Assembly: GCA_017654855.1 (NCBI GenBank)
Contig: CM030332.1
Span: 1,426,001 to 1,490,000, forward strand
Direction of reading: 5' to 3'
Length of the DNA: 64,000 nt
DNA from: Podospora anserina
Lineage: Eukaryota
Made by a program: the position numbers and the translations under genes. This document shows positions 55,719 to 61,288 of this stretch, in pieces. The notes below the pieces were generated by a model. That model saw nothing but the letters and a program-made list of their open reading frames with translations. It did no database searches and was not told the origin of the DNA. Each line of letters opens with the position of its first letter. The first letter of the stretch is position 1.

Positions 55719-56514
55719 ACCAAAAACCCAGCGGGAAACTGAGGGAAGGCACAACACGACAAGGATTTGCAGGTGAGATGCCTGGTCACTTACTCTTGCA
55801 AGTCGCTTTGGATCAATTGGAGAGGAGCATCCTCCATGTAGTCATCCACGAACGGCATTGTGACAGCTGTCTAGTGATGGCTTATGGTGATGGGCTATTC
55901 TGCGCTTCGTCGCGACTTGGAAGACAGGCGGCCTTGGAAGTGAAAGTGAAAGTGAGCTCTAGACCAACCAGCGCGTCGCGAACAAAAAGGCGCTGTGAGA
56001 GGGTGTCAGTAAAATGAGCCAAAAATCATAAAAATCGCAGAAAAAATTCCAGATATGAATCATACCTCGTAGATGAAGAAAATTCAACGATTTCTTCGAC
56101 TTTTGCGATGCGGCGGCGTGTTGTATGTTCTGGAGAATGGTATGATGTAAACACGTTGTTTGGGGTTCGGGTAAGAGGTTGCAAAGTTCCCGGGTTGCGG
56201 TTGGCTTTGTTTGCCGTATTAGGTAAGGTTAATTAATTTCTTATTAGCAGCTGCCATGCCTACAAGGGCCAACAGTACTATTAGTGGGGTTTAGCATGCA
56301 ATGCTGTTAGTGCAGAGAACTTGAGCAATATTATCCGATTATCAATCGAAGCAAGAGAGCATCGACAGGCAAAGCAACGTCATTTTCTTAACTTGTGAGA
56401 GAGCCAGCAAAAGAATGTAAATTTGCAATCTCCCAGCCAACTTACAAAACAAGCAGCTATGTCTCGCTACAGTCGCTCTGCCTATCTTACAAACATTGGC
56501 ACCCCATCAGTTAT

Positions 56515-58804
56515 CTAATTCTTCTGCCTCCTCTTCGCCTCTTCACACACCAAGACCTCTCCCTTTCTCTTTTTCTTGCCTCCAAACTTCAGCTCCCACA
56601 TCTTTGCCTTCTCGGGCCAGATACGTTCAAACAAGGCCTCCACCTCCTCCCACTTCCCAACCTCATGTCCCGGCTCTATCGGTCCCTGATCCCCAAGCCA
56701 ATCCTTCTCAAGTCTTCCTGTAGGCCGTTCCACTCCGAGCACCTCGTAAAGCGACTCTACAGTCTTAGGAATATAAGGCTCTAGCATCCTCACCACCAAG
56801 TATACCAGATTGATCCCCACCTCCAAAACAGCCTGCCGCTCACATGTGTCCGTCAACATAACCCTGTTACTGACCAGGTCCAAAAGAGCAATGCCTCCAC
56901 AAGTTAACTCCAGAGTTGTCATCAAGCCACCCCTCAACTCCGAGTTTTTAAGCTGGGTAACGTACTGCACCAGTAGCTTGTGTACACCTCCTTTGAAGCG
57001 CTTAATCGTCTGTCCCACAGACGAAAGCAGTGGCCCATTGATATGATCGTGGCTGTGAGGCACCACACCGTTGAGGTCCGTGAGGACTTTGTGGACCAGT
57101 TTCCCGATCTTACCGACAAAAAGTTCATTGTGGACCTCGACCAGCCTGTCCCAGGTGAAATCCGTGTCTTCCATGCCCTCAGGGCGGGACTGGAGGAGGA
57201 AGAATCGAAAGACATCAGCAGAGAGGCCAGTTTGCTGAGCATTGTCGCCAAATACCCCCACCCCAAGGGATTTAGAGAATCTGCCGCCCTGGTAGGTGAG
57301 AAATCTTGTTGAAGCGATGTGGCGAGGAGCTGTGTAGGGAGGATCCAAGGGAAGTAGCGTGGCAGGAAACAAGATCCCATGGAAGAAGATGTTGTCTGCG
57401 CCGAGAAACTGGGATAGCCGAACGCCTACATCCGACTTGGGTGTGTTATCACCAGGTTTGTAGAAAGAGCTGTCATTGTCGTCGTGGCTTTTCATGGCGA
57501 TGGGTGTCGAAGGCCGCCACCACGCCCTCCAGCTTTCCCCTTCCATCCCACTTGCCGTGATGGAAATATATCCGAGCAACGCATCCCACCACGGATAGAA
57601 AACTTTTCCGTCGAACCCTGCCAACCGCCCGGGCACCGGTGTTCCCCAGTCCAGTCCATCCCTTGTTATACATATAGAAGAGTTCCCATTGATTTCCTTC
57701 GCGTTTACCAACCAATCCTCTCCTTGTTCCTTAGCCTGGTTCTCGAGCAACGGGCCATGATTGTCAAGTTTCAAAAACAAGTGCTTGCTCGGCCTTAGTG
57801 CTGGCCTTCCCCCGTGGATCTTACACTTCGGCTCAACCAACTCCGTAATGTCAAAAACCCAGTCACACTCCCCACACTGGTCACCTACCGCCCCCCCAGC
57901 CAAAGCTGTCAGCAACTCTGCATCTCAAGGTGAGCATCTCAAAAAAAAAAAAACGTACCTCTCGCCTCCTCGCTGCCACACTCCGGGCATGTCCCCTCCA
58001 CCAACCGATCAAACACAAACCCTTTACACTCCTCACACCAAAGCTGTTCCGAATCCCTGATCTCAATCAGCCCTTCTCCCCACAACTCTTTGAAGATGTC
58101 GTGTGTGATTTCCGTGTGCCGGTCATTCGTCGTCCGTCCAAAGATGTCGAAGCTGATATTGAACCACTCGTACACGTCCTTGTGGATCTTATGGTACTTG
58201 TCACACAACTCTTGGGGCGCAACGCCTTCCTCGCGTGCCCGGAGGGAGGTTGTAGTGCCGAACTCGTCCGTTCCTGTCCATTGCAACATTTATCATCAGC
58301 AGTTTGTCAGACGGTCGAGAGGGAAACAGGCAACACAACCAAATCCCCAGATGACATCCTAACCATCAACTCATTTTTGGCCTAAAATAAATAAATAAAT
58401 AAAAAAGGAACCGAGAAGCAGGCAAGACATTGAAAGAGGAAGATAAAAAACAAGACATTGCCAGTCCCACAGCCAAAGCCTGGACCAACCGTCCACTCCT
58501 CCGGCTTCCCAACCCGAGGAAAAGGGAAAAGATGATACCGTGAAAAAGGAGACCAACCAAAAATAAAGAGAAGATCCCAAAAACAAAAACAGATAAGCAA
58601 GAACAGAGATAACTCACCCCCCACAAAAAGCACATTCCCCCCCCGCCCCCTCCAAAACCTCGCAAACACATCCGCCGAGAGCACCGACCCGATAATATTC
58701 CCCAAGTGCGGGACATTGTTCACATAAGGAAGCGCCGAAGTGACCAAAATATTGCGCTCGCCCGGCTTGGGGAGCGGCAACACTTTCTCCTGTTTGGACA
58801 CCAT
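56515..58804 (-). CDS. Divergent methionyl-tRNA synthetase-like protein (cytosolic/eukaryotic-type MetRS homolog), ~623 aa
   Basis: Exons 58804-58618, 58273-57959, 57884-56515 join in frame (1872 nt). Motifs: [18 protein letters not shown] (HIGH), GTDE, FDIFGRT, zinc knuckles [44 protein letters not shown] (KMSKS). Confidence 0.85.
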
Positions 58805-59416
58805 TGTCTTTGAAAAAGACAAATTGCAATTGGTTCTTGATGAGAAAAAAAAAACAAAAAAAAATAAAAACAGACGGGATATCAAGTAGTTGAAGTGGCA
58901 GTAGTGGTGTGGTCTGTTGCCAATGTAGGTAAGTGACAGTTCCTTCGAGCTGGAGATGGGGTTTTATACACACCTATCAACACATACCTAGGCAACGCCC
59001 TCGAAAGAGAAAAAACCTGCATGACCCATCCCGAAAGTTCGAGACAAGGTCACACACACACACAATCGTGCAAACGCCCTCCATTCTCGTTTCATCTCGA
59101 ACCTCGCATTGTCAAATCACAGAACTTCTTTGATCCGTTTGCTCTACCCCCAAAACACCAATCAACCAGTTTTGCCATCATATCGGAGCCTGGGTAGGTA
59201 CACTTTGATACCCTTTCTTCATCAAAAATAGTTACTTCTTATATTCCCACGCTATGTGCAACGCTCAAGCCCATAAACCAACTGCTCCACGATTCCTCAT
59301 TAACACCTCCCGGAGGCCTTCATAACCGCTAGAGCATCCAGAAAAGCCTCCTATTCCTCCTCCTTCAACCCCACCAACTTATCCTCCAACCCCTGTATCT
59401 CATACTGAGCTGCAAT

Positions 59417-61288
59417 CTACTCTAGCTGAAGTCTGCCGACACTGATGGGCTGATACTTGTCCTCTCCCAAGGCGTCTTCCACCCGCTGCATCACCGCCAG
59501 AACCTTTTCTTCTTCCAGTCGGCGACCAATAACCTGCACGCCCACGGGCAGGCCATCCATCTTCTCGGCGTCGTAGTACTTGTAGGCCCCACGAGCAACA
59601 CCATTGAGCTTTCTGATGTTGAAGTCTTCTGGGAGGCCGTCAAGTTCGGCTTGGACCTTGGTTACGGGAAGGACGCCGGCTGAGTAATCGAGCTGGATAT
59701 AATGTTAGCCAGAGACATGGATAGGACAGCGTTCAAGTAGACTTGCCAAGTTGAACAAAAATGTATACCCACAGCTGCTGAAAGCATCCTTCATCGCATT
59801 CAGGGGCAGCGCAGGCGTTGCATTCGGAACCGAAACAATGACATCCAAACCCTGCTGATTCCACCACTCAAACCACTTGGCTCTGTACTCCTCTCTCCGA
59901 GCAACCAGCTTCCAGTTCTCAAAAGCCGACTGTGCTCTCCAATTCTCAACCAACCCAGCCCAAACATGATCTCTCCTGACATACTTCACCCAAAGGTAAT
60001 AGAACCATCTAAACGGGTTCCACCAACTCGCCAGTGATTTGATCTGAGCAGCTCCAGTATCCAGCCACTCCCCAGGTCGCCTAAAAGAGTCAAACATCTG
60101 CCCGCCATCCGCATTCAACACCAGTGAGGCAATCTTCAACCCCTCATACAGATCCGGCGGCGCGTGCTCCCCCTCCAACTCAACAATCTCGTGCCCCTGC
60201 GCCTTCAACGCATTCACAACCGTCTCCAACGCCCTCCGACAGGCAGGACTCGGATCAACAACCCCATCCGTCCACATCACCCCAACCTTCAACTTCTCCT
60301 TCTGCTCAAACCCCTTCTCCATCTCCCCCCTCCACGCAAGAGGGTGAACAGTCCCATCATACCTCCACGGCCCAAATTCAATCACCTCCCTAGTAAAATA
60401 CCTCAAATCCCCCAACGTCCTCGCCATAGGACTGTACACACTCGGCACCCCCTCCTGCCCAGGCATACTAGTCTTGATTCCCGCCTTAGGCCACCTCCCC
60501 GTCGAGCACCTCAACGCATAACAACCCGCCCAATGCGCCGGCAACCTCACGCTCCCCGCCACATCGCTCCCAACCCCAATCCTACTCCCCCCCATAGCCA
60601 ACAGCGCGCTCTCACCCCCCGTACTCCCCCCGGGACTATACCCTTTTTTAAACGGATTCTCCGCCCTCCCCCAAACATCATTCCCGCTCTCAAAACTCAA
60701 CAACGTAATCGGACAATTCGTCTTGACATGCGGCACAGCCCCCATATCCTTCAGCATCCTCACCATCGCCCCATCTTTGCCGTCGTCGTTCCCCACAAAC
60801 GAGCTGTACCCCACAGTCGTGTCATATCCCCCAACAATGATCGTATCCTTCAGCGACACCGGGATACCCGCCAACGACCCCTCTAGGTTCGGCAGCGGGT
60901 TCCCTCCCTTGTCTACTTCTGTTTTGGTGCGTGCAGCGTTGATCCACTGCTCCGCTGAAGAAAACATAATCTCCGTTAGGCAGTTGGTCTGAGAGTGCGC
61001 CCTTAGCGCAAGCTTTCCATACGCGCGGAGGATGCTCAGCGGATGGGTGGTGCCGTTTTGGACATTGGCGACCAGTGAATCGATCGGCGCGGAAAATATC
61101 TCCTTTTCGTCTGGGGTGACGGGTGATTTGTACTCTGCTGGGAGGGCGTCGATCCGTTGTTGGCGTTGGGCTTGCTTGAACTTGCTAATGGGGAGGTTGT
61201 TAATTCGAATTGTCAGAGGGTAGAGGTGGGAAGAAGGGAAAGAAGCTTACCAGTCCCGTTTGTGCTGAAAGTACTCGCTTAGAAACAT
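59417..61288 (-). CDS. Amidase-signature family enzyme (acetamidase/FAAH-like)
   Basis: GIPVSLKD, SPGGSTGGE, GSDVAGSVRLP (Ser-cisSer-Lys triad), YTFLFNL|LDYSAGVLPV, GLPVGVQVIG. Introns ~61250-61186 (GT-AG) and 59746-59693 (GC-AG). Confidence 0.9.

What the first reader, a model, noticed from the sequence alone, without database searches (positions are those of the whole stretch)
56515..58804. Intact but strongly diverged MetRS homolog: catalytic core kept, anticodon-binding residues apparently lost
Seen: three exons give an uninterrupted ~623-aa ORF with canonical splice sites, so this is not an obvious pseudogene. The HIGH motif (HLGN), KMSKS-like RFSKS, both zinc knuckles and Met-pocket residues (LPYVN Tyr, D of GTDE, W in [12 protein letters not shown]) are present. 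Established: cytosolic fungal MetRS normally reads DEYGTATE, FMGKDNVPFH, KFSKS, and in the anticodon domain NNxELLxNLGNFxNR (equivalent to E. coli Asn391/Arg395) plus a later GN helix. Seen here instead: [34 protein letters not shown] and GGIALL, plus a shortened segment before CITRD. Inference from by-eye alignment: this is a second, non-housekeeping copy that may still adenylate Met or an analog but no longer reads the CAU anticodon. It could be a tRNA-independent amide/adenylate-forming enzyme, an inhibitor-resistant or stress paralog, or an enzyme for a different tRNA.
Basis: partly seen in the sequence, partly recalled or inferred. Interest (0 to 1): 0.78.

Follow-up and report, generated by a model that had tools for sequence, protein, structure and literature searches.

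The report
Divergent methionyl-tRNA synthetase paralog in Podospora
This is an intact, transcribed extra copy of the enzyme that loads methionine onto tRNA; it keeps its chemistry but has lost the residues that normally read the methionine anticodon, so it is probably not the cell's everyday enzyme and its real job is unknown.

Summary
On the minus strand, three exons (58804-58618, 58273-57959, 57884-56515) with GT..AG introns give a 623-aa protein. It is identical to the public protein PODANS_1_4020 of Podospora anserina.

It passes the MetRS profiles and folds like MetRS. It keeps HIGH, GTDE, four zinc-knuckle Cys, the Met-pocket Trp/Tyr/His and the KMSKS lysine. The two helices that read the CAU anticodon have lost their near-universal residues: the E. 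coli N391 and R395 equivalents are K429 and K433. These positions differ among five genera.

Close relatives were found only in Podosporaceae, plus two odd kin in Aspergillus venezuelensis and a Xylariaceae strain. The clade sits on a long branch. An AU test rejects grouping it with the canonical Sordariales MetRS, so it is an old paralog.

Six Podospora species keep it intact. Substitutions avoid the catalytic core (5 of 293 sites against 29 of 330).

Contigs of four runs whose RNA label is a guess show intron 2 removed. Two also show an unproductive alternative splice inside intron 1.

I could not check that P. anserina has a canonical MetRS, because no genome is held. Function is inferred only: a methionine-activating accessory enzyme that does not discriminate the anticodon.

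The parts
58618..58804 (-). Exon 1 (codons 1-62 plus 1 nt). ATG at 58804. Holds LPYVN and the HIGH motif HLGN (58697-58708).
   Evidence: PF09334 50.4 bits. Separate contigs of runs guessed as RNA cover 58659-58836 and 58656-58923.
58274..58617 (-). Intron 1 of the public model (344 nt, GTGAGT..CAG, 42% GC).
   Evidence: The junction restores the invariant GTDE motif without a gap. The junction itself was not covered by contigs.
58274..58339 (-). Alternative 66-nt intron (GTTGTG..CAG) that uses the same acceptor. The upstream part of intron 1 (58340 to at least 58552) stays in the transcript and brings in-frame stops.
   Evidence: Joint 58273|58340 in 2 of 4 runs (X1, X5). Translation.
57959..58273 (-). 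Exon 2. Holds [10 protein letters not shown] and the first zinc knuckle CPEC (57978-57989).
   Evidence: PF09334 116.9 bits.
57885..57958 (-). Intron 2 (74 nt, GTACGT..TAG).
   Evidence: A joint that skips exactly these 74 nt appears in 4 of 4 runs from 4 studies.
56515..57884 (-). Exon 3 with stop codon (56515-56517). Holds the second zinc knuckle CGEC (57865-57876), [28 protein letters not shown], the anticodon-binding domain and the basic tail.
57424..57510 (-). Insertion specific to the paralogs (residues 293-321), predicted disordered.
   Evidence: Absent from all 40 canonical rows and from A. backusii. pLDDT below 50 for residues 297-319. 4 of 29 sites vary within the Podospora complex.
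57268..57282 (-). KMSKS-type loop RFSKS (residues 369-373). The other four genera read KFSKS. The Arg that follows in canonical enzymes is Leu in all paralogs.
57085..57132 (-). First anticodon-reading helix, [16 protein letters not shown] (residues 419-434). K429 stands at E. coli N391 and K433 at E. coli R395.
   Evidence: E. coli alignment. Columns. Role of N391/R395/W461 from Table 4 of PMC10535265.
56878..56907 (-). Second anticodon helix, [10 protein letters not shown] (residues 494-503). The canonical RGN Asn is lost. Indels follow where other lineages carry PW (E. coli W461) or fungal LDN.
56518..56580 (-). Short basic C-terminal tail GKKKRKGEV...AKRRQKN. It replaces the long Lys-rich tail of canonical Sordariomycete MetRS.
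   Evidence: Two basic clusters are present in 4 of 5 genera. Reading them as an NLS or as RNA-binding is inference only.

Best explanation
PODANS_1_4020 is an old, fast-evolving paralog of cytosolic methionyl-tRNA synthetase, found almost only in Podosporaceae. It is not the housekeeping enzyme.

Shown:
- It is intact in every species seen.
- It is transcribed and spliced.
- It folds as a complete MetRS.
- Its catalytic core is kept under purifying selection. That core comprises HIGH, the GTDE Asp, the CITRD Arg, Trp266, Tyr273, His336, Lys372 of the KMSKS loop and four zinc-knuckle Cys.
- The residues that canonical MetRS from bacteria to fungi use to read the CAU anticodon are replaced. The replacements vary from genus to genus.

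Inferred:
- The protein still binds methionine (or a very close analogue) and ATP and makes the aminoacyl-adenylate.
- It can no longer pick tRNA-Met by its anticodon.
- Any transfer to tRNA is therefore weak or blind to the anticodon, and its cellular role is accessory.

My split of the mechanism given this reading: about 35% relaxed-specificity tRNA methionylation, about 30% a tRNA-independent use of Met-AMP, and the rest unknown.
For: Family membership. TIGR00398 scores 400-434 bits in 5 of 5 paralogs, above the cut-off of 336 (canonical 553-624). PF09334 scores 365-425 bits. The AF2 model has pLDDT 84 and pTM 0.87. Its best fold match is human MetRS 5goy, TM 0.79/0.82.

Catalytic residues. 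Of 191 columns that are at least 90% conserved in 40 canonical MetRS, 135 are kept in all 5 paralog genera. These include all the motif residues listed above.

Anticodon residues. 9 of the 25 lost or variable conserved columns lie in the two anticodon helices. The N391 position reads K/Y/K/R/S and the R395 position reads K/R/K/S/R in the five genera. PF19303 scores 25-36 bits against 60-70 in canonical enzymes.

Constraint. All six Podospora species have 623 aa without breaks. Of 34 variable sites, 5 fall in the 293 core positions and 29 in the 330 others, Fisher p = 7e-5.

Paralogy.
- Only five 90% clusters score above 400 bits. The next hit scores 257 bits.
- In the exhaustive search the best non-self representative scores 460 bits at 44% identity.
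- In the careful tree the paralog clade has 100/100 support and a stem of 0.94. It lies outside canonical Saccharomycotina plus Pezizomycotina.
- An AU test rejects a clade with canonical Sordariales MetRS (delta lnL 77, p about 1e-103).
- The paralogs lack marks that the sampled canonical Sordariomycete rows share (RSITRD, LNYEN.KFSKS), and the CPKPGCGY insert of the two Sordariales rows.

Expression. The intron-2 joint appears in 4 of 4 runs.
Against: No biochemical datum exists, so adenylation and tRNA use are inferred from sequence alone.

A canonical MetRS in P. anserina itself was not shown. No genome is held, and no Podosporaceae canonical sequence was among the 120 hits listed.

The whole protein evolves fast. 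Five genera of one family are about 76% identical in the core, which is about what canonical MetRS shows across all Ascomycota. Constraint is therefore weak overall.

Several near-universal residues close to the active site are changed in all paralogs: K330 to A or P in GKDN, R374 to L after KFSKS, Y67 to F and V265 to P. These could impair or alter catalysis.

In 2 of 4 runs the contig that carries exons 2-3 continues through an alternative donor into intron 1, which brings in-frame stops.

The AU groups were named after a first tree had been seen, and long branches are in play.
Confidence: 0.6

Rival explanations
1. Dedicated promiscuous MetRS. It binds tRNAs through general basic contacts and puts methionine on non-Met tRNAs. 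That would be a genetically separate version of the mismethionylation that canonical MetRS performs under oxidative stress.
For: The catalytic core is intact while the anticodon determinants are lost. The anticodon-domain fold is kept with high pLDDT. The altered helix stays rich in K, R and H in 5 of 5 genera, and a basic tail is kept in 4 of 5. Mismethionylation by MetRS is documented in yeast and mammals (PMC3488245 and PMC4179492, search listing and start of abstract only; PMC7373986, passage).
Against: There is no direct evidence of tRNA binding. R374L and K330A are fixed near the active site. Residues on the helix are not conserved, which a selected RNA-binding surface would usually be. 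Bacterial MetRS-like domains keep the same helical domain without using tRNA (9l8v).
Confidence: 0.15
2. tRNA-independent adenylating enzyme. Met-AMP (or the adenylate of an analogue such as homocysteine) is passed to a small-molecule or protein acceptor, as in bacterial hydrazine synthetases or other synthetase paralogs.
For: MetRS-like domains that work without tRNA exist. Hydrazine synthetases combine cupin and MetRS-like domains (PMC12376268, abstract start). The PyrN C-terminal domain (9l8v) matches the model at TM 0.72/0.83. Thirteen canonical residues are fixed to a new residue in all paralogs, several beside the active site.
Against: No cupin domain is present in the protein. The nine neighbouring ORFs scanned are a FAAH-like amidase, a chromodomain protein, a Cu-ATPase, CSN7, CAF1B in two pieces, an RGS protein, a kinase and an E2, so there are no cluster hallmarks. 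The Met-pocket Trp, Tyr and His are unchanged. Identity to PyrN is only 18%.
Confidence: 0.12
3. Slowly decaying or functionless duplicate. It is still open by chance or under only residual constraint.
For: Evolution is very fast compared with canonical MetRS. Anticodon residues and loop lengths drift between genera. An unproductive splice form appears in 2 of 4 runs. In the Podospora complex the KMSKS loop reads RFSKS.
Against: The frame is intact in 6 of 6 Podospora species and in 4 other genera. All catalytic motifs are invariant across the five genera. Substitutions avoid the core (5 of 293 against 29 of 330, p = 7e-5). GC3 is 64%, like the neighbours, against 42-49% GC in the introns.
Confidence: 0.1
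4. Inhibitor-resistant or stress back-up MetRS that still charges tRNA-Met, like the second synthetase copies that protect antibiotic producers (recalled, from no call).
For: It is an extra copy with altered residues around the active site.
Against: A working back-up must recognise tRNA-Met, yet the anticodon determinants are lost and not conserved. No biosynthetic genes lie nearby.
Confidence: 0.05
5. It is the only cytosolic MetRS of Podosporaceae and has simply diverged.
For: Public records call it 'putative cytoplasmic methionyl-tRNA synthetase' (P. comata and T. verruculosa). No canonical Podosporaceae sequence was seen here.
Against: The AU test rejects orthology with canonical Sordariales MetRS. 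An essential enzyme would not let its tRNA-reading residues drift between sister genera. Canonical MetRS is 78-94% identical among the Sordariales seen.
Confidence: 0.03

Closest known systems
Canonical eukaryotic cytosolic MetRS (yeast MES1, human MARS1; structures 5goy and 5gl7)
   Same: Same fold over the full length (TM 0.79/0.82). Same catalytic motifs and zinc knuckles. It passes TIGR00398 and PF09334. It has no N-terminal GST-like domain, like the canonical MetRS of Sordariomycetes.
   Different: The anticodon-reading Asn and Arg and the RGN Asn are lost and vary. It carries a disordered 29-residue insertion. The Lys-rich C-terminal tail is reduced to a short basic tail. It evolves far faster and branches outside the canonical ascomycete clade.
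MetRS-like domains of bacterial hydrazine synthetases (cupin plus MetRS-like; e.g. the PyrN C-terminal domain, 9l8v)
   Same: A MetRS fold, including the helical C-terminal domain, used as an amino-acid adenylating module without tRNA (PMC12376268, abstract start; Foldseek rank 15).
   Different: Those are bacterial, fused to a cupin domain, sit in biosynthetic clusters and activate Glu, Gly, Thr and other amino acids. This protein is of eukaryotic type, has no cupin, sits in no cluster, keeps the Met pocket, and is 18% identical.
Synthetase paralogs with non-translational roles (YadB/Glu-Q-RS, HisZ)
   Same: Duplicated synthetase cores that no longer act as the housekeeping enzyme (PMC7373986, passage).
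   Different: That YadB lacks the anticodon-binding domain and that HisZ has lost catalysis is recalled, from no call. Here the domain and the catalytic residues are both present, and only the reading residues are gone.
Mismethionylation by canonical MetRS under oxidative stress
   Same: Methionine placed on tRNAs irrespective of the CAU anticodon is a known and possibly adaptive activity of MetRS (PMC3488245 and PMC4179492, listing and abstract start).
   Different: There the housekeeping enzyme is modulated. Here a separate gene would carry a built-in loss of discrimination, which is untested.
Odd MetRS-like proteins P0037 (Aspergillus venezuelensis) and P0108 (Xylariaceae sp. FL0255)
   Same: They group with the Podosporaceae clade (100/97). 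They share LTY before the KMSKS loop. P0108 also shares YPW, the LVG..GRF..S form of the anticodon helix and FPATL.
   Different: Both public models look incomplete: P0108 lacks the N-terminus and P0037 lacks GTDE and CITRD. P0037 still has the canonical Asn and Arg. The grouping could partly be long-branch attraction.

Membership tests
Class I methionyl-tRNA synthetase (PF09334 / TIGR00398) | Profile score above the curated cut-off. | tested here: met
   P0502 scores 370.6 bits on PF09334 (cut-off 20.1) and 403.7 bits on TIGR00398 (cut-off 336.35). It scores 408 bits on NF001100, whose cut-off is 587; the canonical Sordariomycete rows also fall just short of that (574-577).
Class I methionyl-tRNA synthetase (PF09334 / TIGR00398) | Rossmann-fold signature motifs HIGH and KMSKS. 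| tested here: met
   HLGN (residues 33-36) and RFSKS (369-373), read KFSKS in the other four genera.
Class I methionyl-tRNA synthetase (PF09334 / TIGR00398) | Zinc-knuckle Cys pairs in the connective peptide. | tested here: met
   C158, C161, C171 and C174 are invariant in all 49 rows of alignment A1.
Class I methionyl-tRNA synthetase (PF09334 / TIGR00398) | Methionine-pocket residues (E. coli W253, Y260, H301; their roles are recalled and partly stated in PMC7373986). | tested here: met
   W266, Y273 and H336 align to E. coli W253, Y260 and H301 and are invariant in A1.
Class I methionyl-tRNA synthetase (PF09334 / TIGR00398) | Helical anticodon-binding domain (PF19303). | tested here: met
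   25.2 bits against a cut-off of 23.5, which is marginal (canonical 60-70). The helices are modelled with pLDDT above 90.
Class I methionyl-tRNA synthetase (PF09334 / TIGR00398) | Base-specific anticodon readers (E. coli N391, R395, W461; Table 4 of PMC10535265). | tested here: not met
   N391 is K429 and R395 is K433. Across the five genera these read K/Y/K/R/S and K/R/K/S/R. The W461 region carries indels. The sampled canonical fungal rows themselves read LDN or MNN there, not PW.
Class I methionyl-tRNA synthetase (PF09334 / TIGR00398) | Charges tRNA-Met with methionine. | not testable with these tools
   This needs ATP-PPi exchange and aminoacylation assays.
Housekeeping cytosolic MetRS orthologs of Sordariales | Branches with the canonical Sordariales sequences and shares the marks of their lineage (the RSITRD form of canonical Sordariomycetes, the CPKPGCGY insert of Sordariales). 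| tested here: not met
   The AU test rejects the clade (delta lnL 77, p about 1e-103). The marks are absent.
Hydrazine-synthetase MetRS-like domain | Fused or adjacent cupin domain in a biosynthetic cluster. | tested here: not met
   Pfam finds only PF09334, PF19303 and a weak PF00133. The neighbours have no cupin.
Pseudogene or decaying duplicate | Frameshifts or stops, and substitutions spread evenly. | tested here: not met
   The frame is open in 6 Podospora species and 4 other genera. Substitutions avoid the core, p = 7e-5. dN/dS was not computed because no ortholog DNA was available.

The most novel reading that the evidence does not exclude
An anticodon-blind methionyl-tRNA synthetase encoded by its own gene. 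It would deliberately put methionine on non-Met tRNAs, or on another acceptor. That would give a filamentous fungus long used to study ageing and oxidative stress a hard-wired, separately regulated route to methionine mistranslation. The unproductive splice form would act as its off-switch.
Probability: 0.12. Interest if true: 0.85.

Novelty: new variant of a known kind. Interest (0 to 1): 0.5.

Why it matters
Synthetase paralogs that keep their chemistry but drop tRNA recognition have repeatedly turned out to be new enzymes. Examples are Glu-Q-RS and the MetRS-like hydrazine synthetases.

I know of no described eukaryotic cytosolic MetRS paralog of this kind. My paper searches found nothing on this gene.

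Public records label it simply 'methionine--tRNA ligase' or 'putative cytoplasmic methionyl-tRNA synthetase'. That label probably misleads anyone counting translation genes in Podospora.

P. anserina is easy to manipulate genetically, so a deletion and a few enzyme assays would settle the question. They would tell whether this is a relaxed-specificity synthetase, a new Met-adenylate-using enzyme or a gene on its way out.

Tried and rejected
- Own-genome search for other MetRS genes: no genome is held for this window.
- The look-up of sequencing runs: no RNA holder listed. All run kinds are guesses.
- Intron 1 as annotated: no contig of the four runs covers the 58618|58273 junction. Exon-1 contigs stop at 58656 and 58659, next to a G-run. 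This is no evidence either way.
- Search for P. anserina's canonical MetRS.
  - Querying an unnamed Pezizomycete-like MetRS (P0006) and then Thyridium MetRS (P0339) brought seven canonical Sordariales clusters (P0394, P0412, P0414, P0416, P0426, P0437, P0490). None was a named Podosporaceae member among the 120 of 7985 hits listed.
  - A local BLAST of P0412 against all 513 fetched proteins found no unnamed candidate.
  - Naming ten top representatives gave Smittium, Capsaspora, Neoconidiobolus and a mite, but no Pezizomycotina.
- Self-resistance or gene-cluster reading: the nine neighbouring ORFs have housekeeping-type Pfam domains. The adjacent amidase is like fatty-acid amide hydrolase, not GatA-like.
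- Recent transfer or RIP: GC is 53%, GC3 is 64% and the dinucleotide indices match the seven neighbouring ORFs.
- Promoter words (TGASTCA, TTASTAA, STRE) in 58805-59704: one STRE only, which is not informative.
- Rfam on 55800-59800: 0 matches.
- tRNA genes in the window: 0.
- Papers:
  - 'Podospora' with 'methionyl-tRNA synthetase': 0.
  - 'Pa_1_4020': 3 papers, all on other subjects, two of them on Pseudomonas.
  - 'methionyl-tRNA synthetase', 'second copy' and 'fungi': 0.
  - 'aminoacyl-tRNA synthetase', 'paralog' and 'Pezizomycotina': 4 papers. I read passages of one (PMC7373986); by listing and abstract start none is about MetRS paralogs.
- Supplementary tables of Podospora expression papers were not consulted (closed). 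They may hold expression values for this gene.
- First splice guess (634 aa): rejected in favour of the acceptor that restores ARGDQC.
- One frame slip: corrected.
Full report
**What is there.**
The finding lies on the minus strand. Exon 1 (58804-58618), exon 2 (58273-57959) and exon 3 (57884-56515 with the stop) are joined over two GT..AG introns of 344 and 74 nt. They give 623 aa. A nearer acceptor for intron 2 gives 634 aa but breaks the ARGDQC zinc-knuckle motif, so I rejected it. The 623-aa product is identical at every residue to the public protein PODANS_1_4020 of Podospora anserina S mat+ (P0502). Each exon alone matches Pfam PF09334 (162, 117 and 50 bits).

**Is it a MetRS?**
By profile and by fold, yes.
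- The whole protein scores 370.6 bits on PF09334 and 403.7 bits on TIGR00398, whose cut-off is 336.35. Three canonical fungal enzymes score 553-624 bits.
- An AlphaFold2 model built on a 49-row alignment has mean pLDDT 84.1 and pTM 0.87. Only residues 1-5, 297-319 and 611-619 fall below 50.
- Its best structural matches are human cytosolic MetRS (5goy, TM 0.79/0.82, 40% identity), then archaeal and bacterial MetRS.
- By sequence, the N-terminal 285 residues match human MetRS with 322 bits and the C-terminal 285 with only 104 bits.

**What is kept and what is lost.**
I aligned the protein with its relatives and 40 canonical MetRS from fungi, animals, protists, an archaeon and a bacterium. Among those 40, 191 columns are at least 90% conserved. 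The five paralog genera treat these columns as follows:

| Fate in the five paralog genera | Columns |
|---|---|
| Kept in all five | 135 |
| Fixed to a different residue | 13 |
| Lost or variable | 25 |
| Partly kept | 18 |

The kept columns include [12 protein letters not shown], the GTDE Asp, the four zinc-knuckle Cys, the CITRD Arg, and Trp266, Tyr273 and His336. The last three align to E. coli W253, Y260 and H301. The KFSKS Lys372 is also kept. The roles of these residues are recalled from the MetRS literature. One review passage I read says the methionine methyl group is held by Trp and Tyr (PMC7373986).

Nine of the 25 lost columns lie in two short helices of the anticodon-binding domain.
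- In the canonical motif NNxELLANLGNFVNR, the Asn and Arg that correspond to E. coli N391 and R395 read K429 and K433 here. In the five genera they read K/Y/K/R/S and K/R/K/S/R.
- N391, R395 and W461 are listed as the base-specific readers of the tRNA-Met anticodon in Table 4 of PMC10535265 (passage seen).
- The Asn of the canonical RGN helix is lost in three of five genera. The following stretch has different indels in each genus.
- The sampled canonical fungal MetRS rows do not have the Trp of E. coli W461 either. They read LDN or MNN there.
- The Pfam anticodon-domain score falls to 25-36 bits in the five paralogs, against 60-70 in canonical enzymes.

The new residues are not conserved among close genera. 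I therefore read this as loss or relaxation of anticodon reading, not as a switch to another defined anticodon.

**Who has it, and where does it come from.**
- With exon 3 as query, five 90% clusters stand out: the Podospora complex (97%), Cercophora samala (68%), Triangularia setosa (62%), Apiosordaria backusii (47%) and T. verruculosa (44%). The score then drops from 403 to 257 bits, to ordinary MetRS of yeasts and others.
- An exhaustive HMMER search of 1.84 billion representatives found no other 50% cluster of the family. The best non-self hit has 460 bits and 44% identity.
- Ten of the top representatives that I looked up include Smittium, Capsaspora, Neoconidiobolus and a mite.
- A careful maximum-likelihood tree (40 rows, 590 columns) unites the five genera (100/100) on a stem of 0.94 changes per site. 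It joins them with two odd MetRS-like proteins of Aspergillus venezuelensis and a Xylariaceae strain (100/97).
- The tree places this group outside the canonical clade of Saccharomycotina plus Pezizomycotina (95/87).
- An AU test rejects a clade of the paralogs with canonical Sordariales MetRS (delta lnL 77, p about 1e-103).
- It does not reject an origin within Pezizomycotina (delta lnL 8.4, p = 0.24).
- Caveats: I named these groups after seeing a first tree, and long branches are involved.
- Independent of the tree, the paralogs lack the marks that the sampled canonical Sordariomycete rows share (RSITRD, LNYEN.KFSKS) and the CPKPGCGY insert of the Sordariales rows.
- Base composition, GC3 and RIP indices are like those of the neighbouring genes.

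The gene is thus an old resident paralog with patchy retention. It is not a recent duplicate, and it is not the fast-evolving ortholog of the housekeeping gene.

**Is it under selection.**
All six named Podospora species carry a 623-aa open version. They differ from the window at 7 to 16 residues. The 34 variable sites are unevenly spread:

| Region | Variable sites | Positions |
|---|---|---|
| Three catalytic-core segments | 5 | 293 |
| All other positions | 29 | 330 |
| Anticodon domain (within 'other') | 11 | 147 |
| Paralog-specific insertion (within 'other') | 4 | 29 |
| C-terminus (within 'other') | 8 | 63 |

The core-against-rest contrast gives Fisher p = 7e-5. Two of the changes, K429R and H432R in P. 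pseudocomata, sit on the anticodon helix itself.

Across the five genera the core is about 76% identical and the anticodon domain about 45%. Canonical MetRS shows about 75% and 58% across all Ascomycota. So the protein as a whole evolves roughly as fast within one family as the housekeeping enzyme does within a phylum. The catalytic core is nevertheless clearly protected. I could not compute dN/dS because no ortholog DNA was available.

**Expression.**
No run is on record as RNA. Contigs of four runs from four studies, whose kind the tool guesses as RNA, all carry the exon 2-exon 3 junction with exactly the 74-nt intron removed (4 of 4). That is what spliced mRNA gives. The contigs reach about 60-130 nt past the stop codon.

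The annotated exon 1-exon 2 junction is not covered by any contig. In two runs the contig goes from exon 2 through an alternative donor (joint 58273|58340, 66 nt removed, GT..AG). It then continues in intron 1 to 58430 and 58552. This form has in-frame stops before exon 2 and no in-frame ATG before Met282, so it is unproductive.

Contigs cannot give proportions. The productive junction is supported only by homology: it restores the invariant GTDE motif without a gap.

**Surroundings.**
Neighbouring ORFs encode a fatty-acid-amide-hydrolase-like amidase (59705-61246, same strand, directly upstream), a chromodomain protein, a copper P-type ATPase, CSN7, a CAF1B-type WD40 protein, an RGS protein, a kinase and a ubiquitin E2. 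I found no cupin, no PKS or NRPS, no transporter pair, no tRNA gene and no Rfam match. A biosynthetic-cluster or self-resistance reading has no support.

**What could not be settled.**
I could not test it directly.
- No genome is held.
- My two follow-up searches brought canonical MetRS of seven Sordariales clusters, but none of a named Podosporaceae species among the 120 hits listed each time.
- The indirect case against 'only copy' is the AU test, the drift of the tRNA-reading residues between sister genera, and the high conservation of the canonical enzyme in the order (78-94% identity).
- I put 'only copy' at about 3%.

**Mechanism.**
- Shown: a complete MetRS fold with an intact, selected catalytic core and degenerate, unselected anticodon readers.
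- Inferred: it still forms methionyl-adenylate, and it cannot select tRNA-Met by the anticodon. In the bacterial systems the anticodon is the main identity element (recalled).
- Open: whether it transfers methionine to tRNAs without discrimination, hands the adenylate to another acceptor, or does little.
- The helix that lost Asn and Arg stays rich in Lys, Arg and His, and a short basic tail is kept in four of five genera. These features fit unspecific RNA binding, but equally a nuclear localisation signal.
- Bacterial hydrazine synthetases show that a MetRS-like domain can keep the helical domain and work without tRNA (rank 15; PMC12376268, abstract start).
- Changes fixed in all paralogs next to the active site may matter for catalysis or for binding the tRNA 3' end. 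These are K330A/P in GKDN, R374L after KFSKS, Y67F and V265P.

**Novelty and verdict.**
The gene is in public databases under a plain MetRS name. My searches found no paper on it or on a fungal MetRS paralog. Synthetase paralogs with altered tRNA use are a known kind, and this is a new variant of it: of eukaryotic cytosolic MetRS type, full-length, catalytically equipped and without the usual anticodon readers. Interest is moderate (0.5). The sequence case is clean and the organism is tractable, but function is unknown, and an accessory gene under weak constraint remains a sober possibility.

Noticed in passing
window 58274-58617 (intron 1), joint 58273|58340: An alternative 5' splice site inside the 344-nt intron is used in contigs of 2 of 4 runs. 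It leaves at least 213 nt of intron in the transcript, with in-frame stops. This could be regulated unproductive splicing or just inefficient removal of a long, AT-rich intron.
   Followed up: partly
window 59705-61246 (-): Directly upstream on the same strand lies a 513-aa ORF of the amidase-signature family (PF01425, 235 bits). Its closest solved relatives are fatty-acid amide hydrolases (200 bits). I did not check whether it travels with the MetRS paralog in other species.
   Followed up: partly
window 56066 (loose ends in runs X4 and X10): Contigs covering 56066-56120 continue leftwards with letters that do not fit the local DNA. The loose 30 letters read like part of the ORF at 55882-56025 (-). 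This suggests an intron in the 5' part of the neighbouring chromodomain gene, with one splice site at about 56066.
   Followed up: no
window 58635-58655 (-), codons for RGRGG: A G-rich run in exon 1 lies where both exon-1 contigs stop (58656 and 58659). It is probably an assembly break and not a transcript end.
   Followed up: no
P0412 and P0394 (canonical Sordariales MetRS rows; P0416, P0490, P0495 and P0496): Canonical MetRS of the Sordariales seen carries a two-residue insert in the first zinc knuckle (CPKPGCGY instead of CPKCxY). Thyridium and the other classes sampled lack it.
   Followed up: no
alignment A1, region of E. coli W461: The sampled canonical MetRS rows of Dikarya and zoopagomycete fungi read LDN or MNN where animals, Dictyostelium, the archaeon and the bacterium read PW. 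Fungal enzymes therefore lack the Trp that stacks on C34 in bacteria.
   Followed up: no
P0037 (Aspergillus venezuelensis) and P0108 (Xylariaceae sp. FL0255): Two further odd MetRS-like proteins group with the Podosporaceae paralogs. Both public models look incomplete. P0108 already has the Asn-to-Arg and Arg-to-Ser changes seen in A. backusii. This hints at a wider, patchy paralog family in Pezizomycotina.
   Followed up: partly
window 57972-57974 (-), residue 163: P. anserina has Ser163 where the other five Podospora species have Cys (CPECGC against CPECGS). The position lies between the two zinc-knuckle Cys pairs and is not one of the four invariant Cys.
   Followed up: no
window 56518-56580 (-), residues 603-623: The C-terminal tail has two basic clusters (KKKRK ... 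KRRQK), conserved in 4 of 5 genera. It looks like a bipartite nuclear localisation signal, but it could be the remnant of the Lys-rich tRNA-binding tail of canonical fungal MetRS.
   Followed up: no
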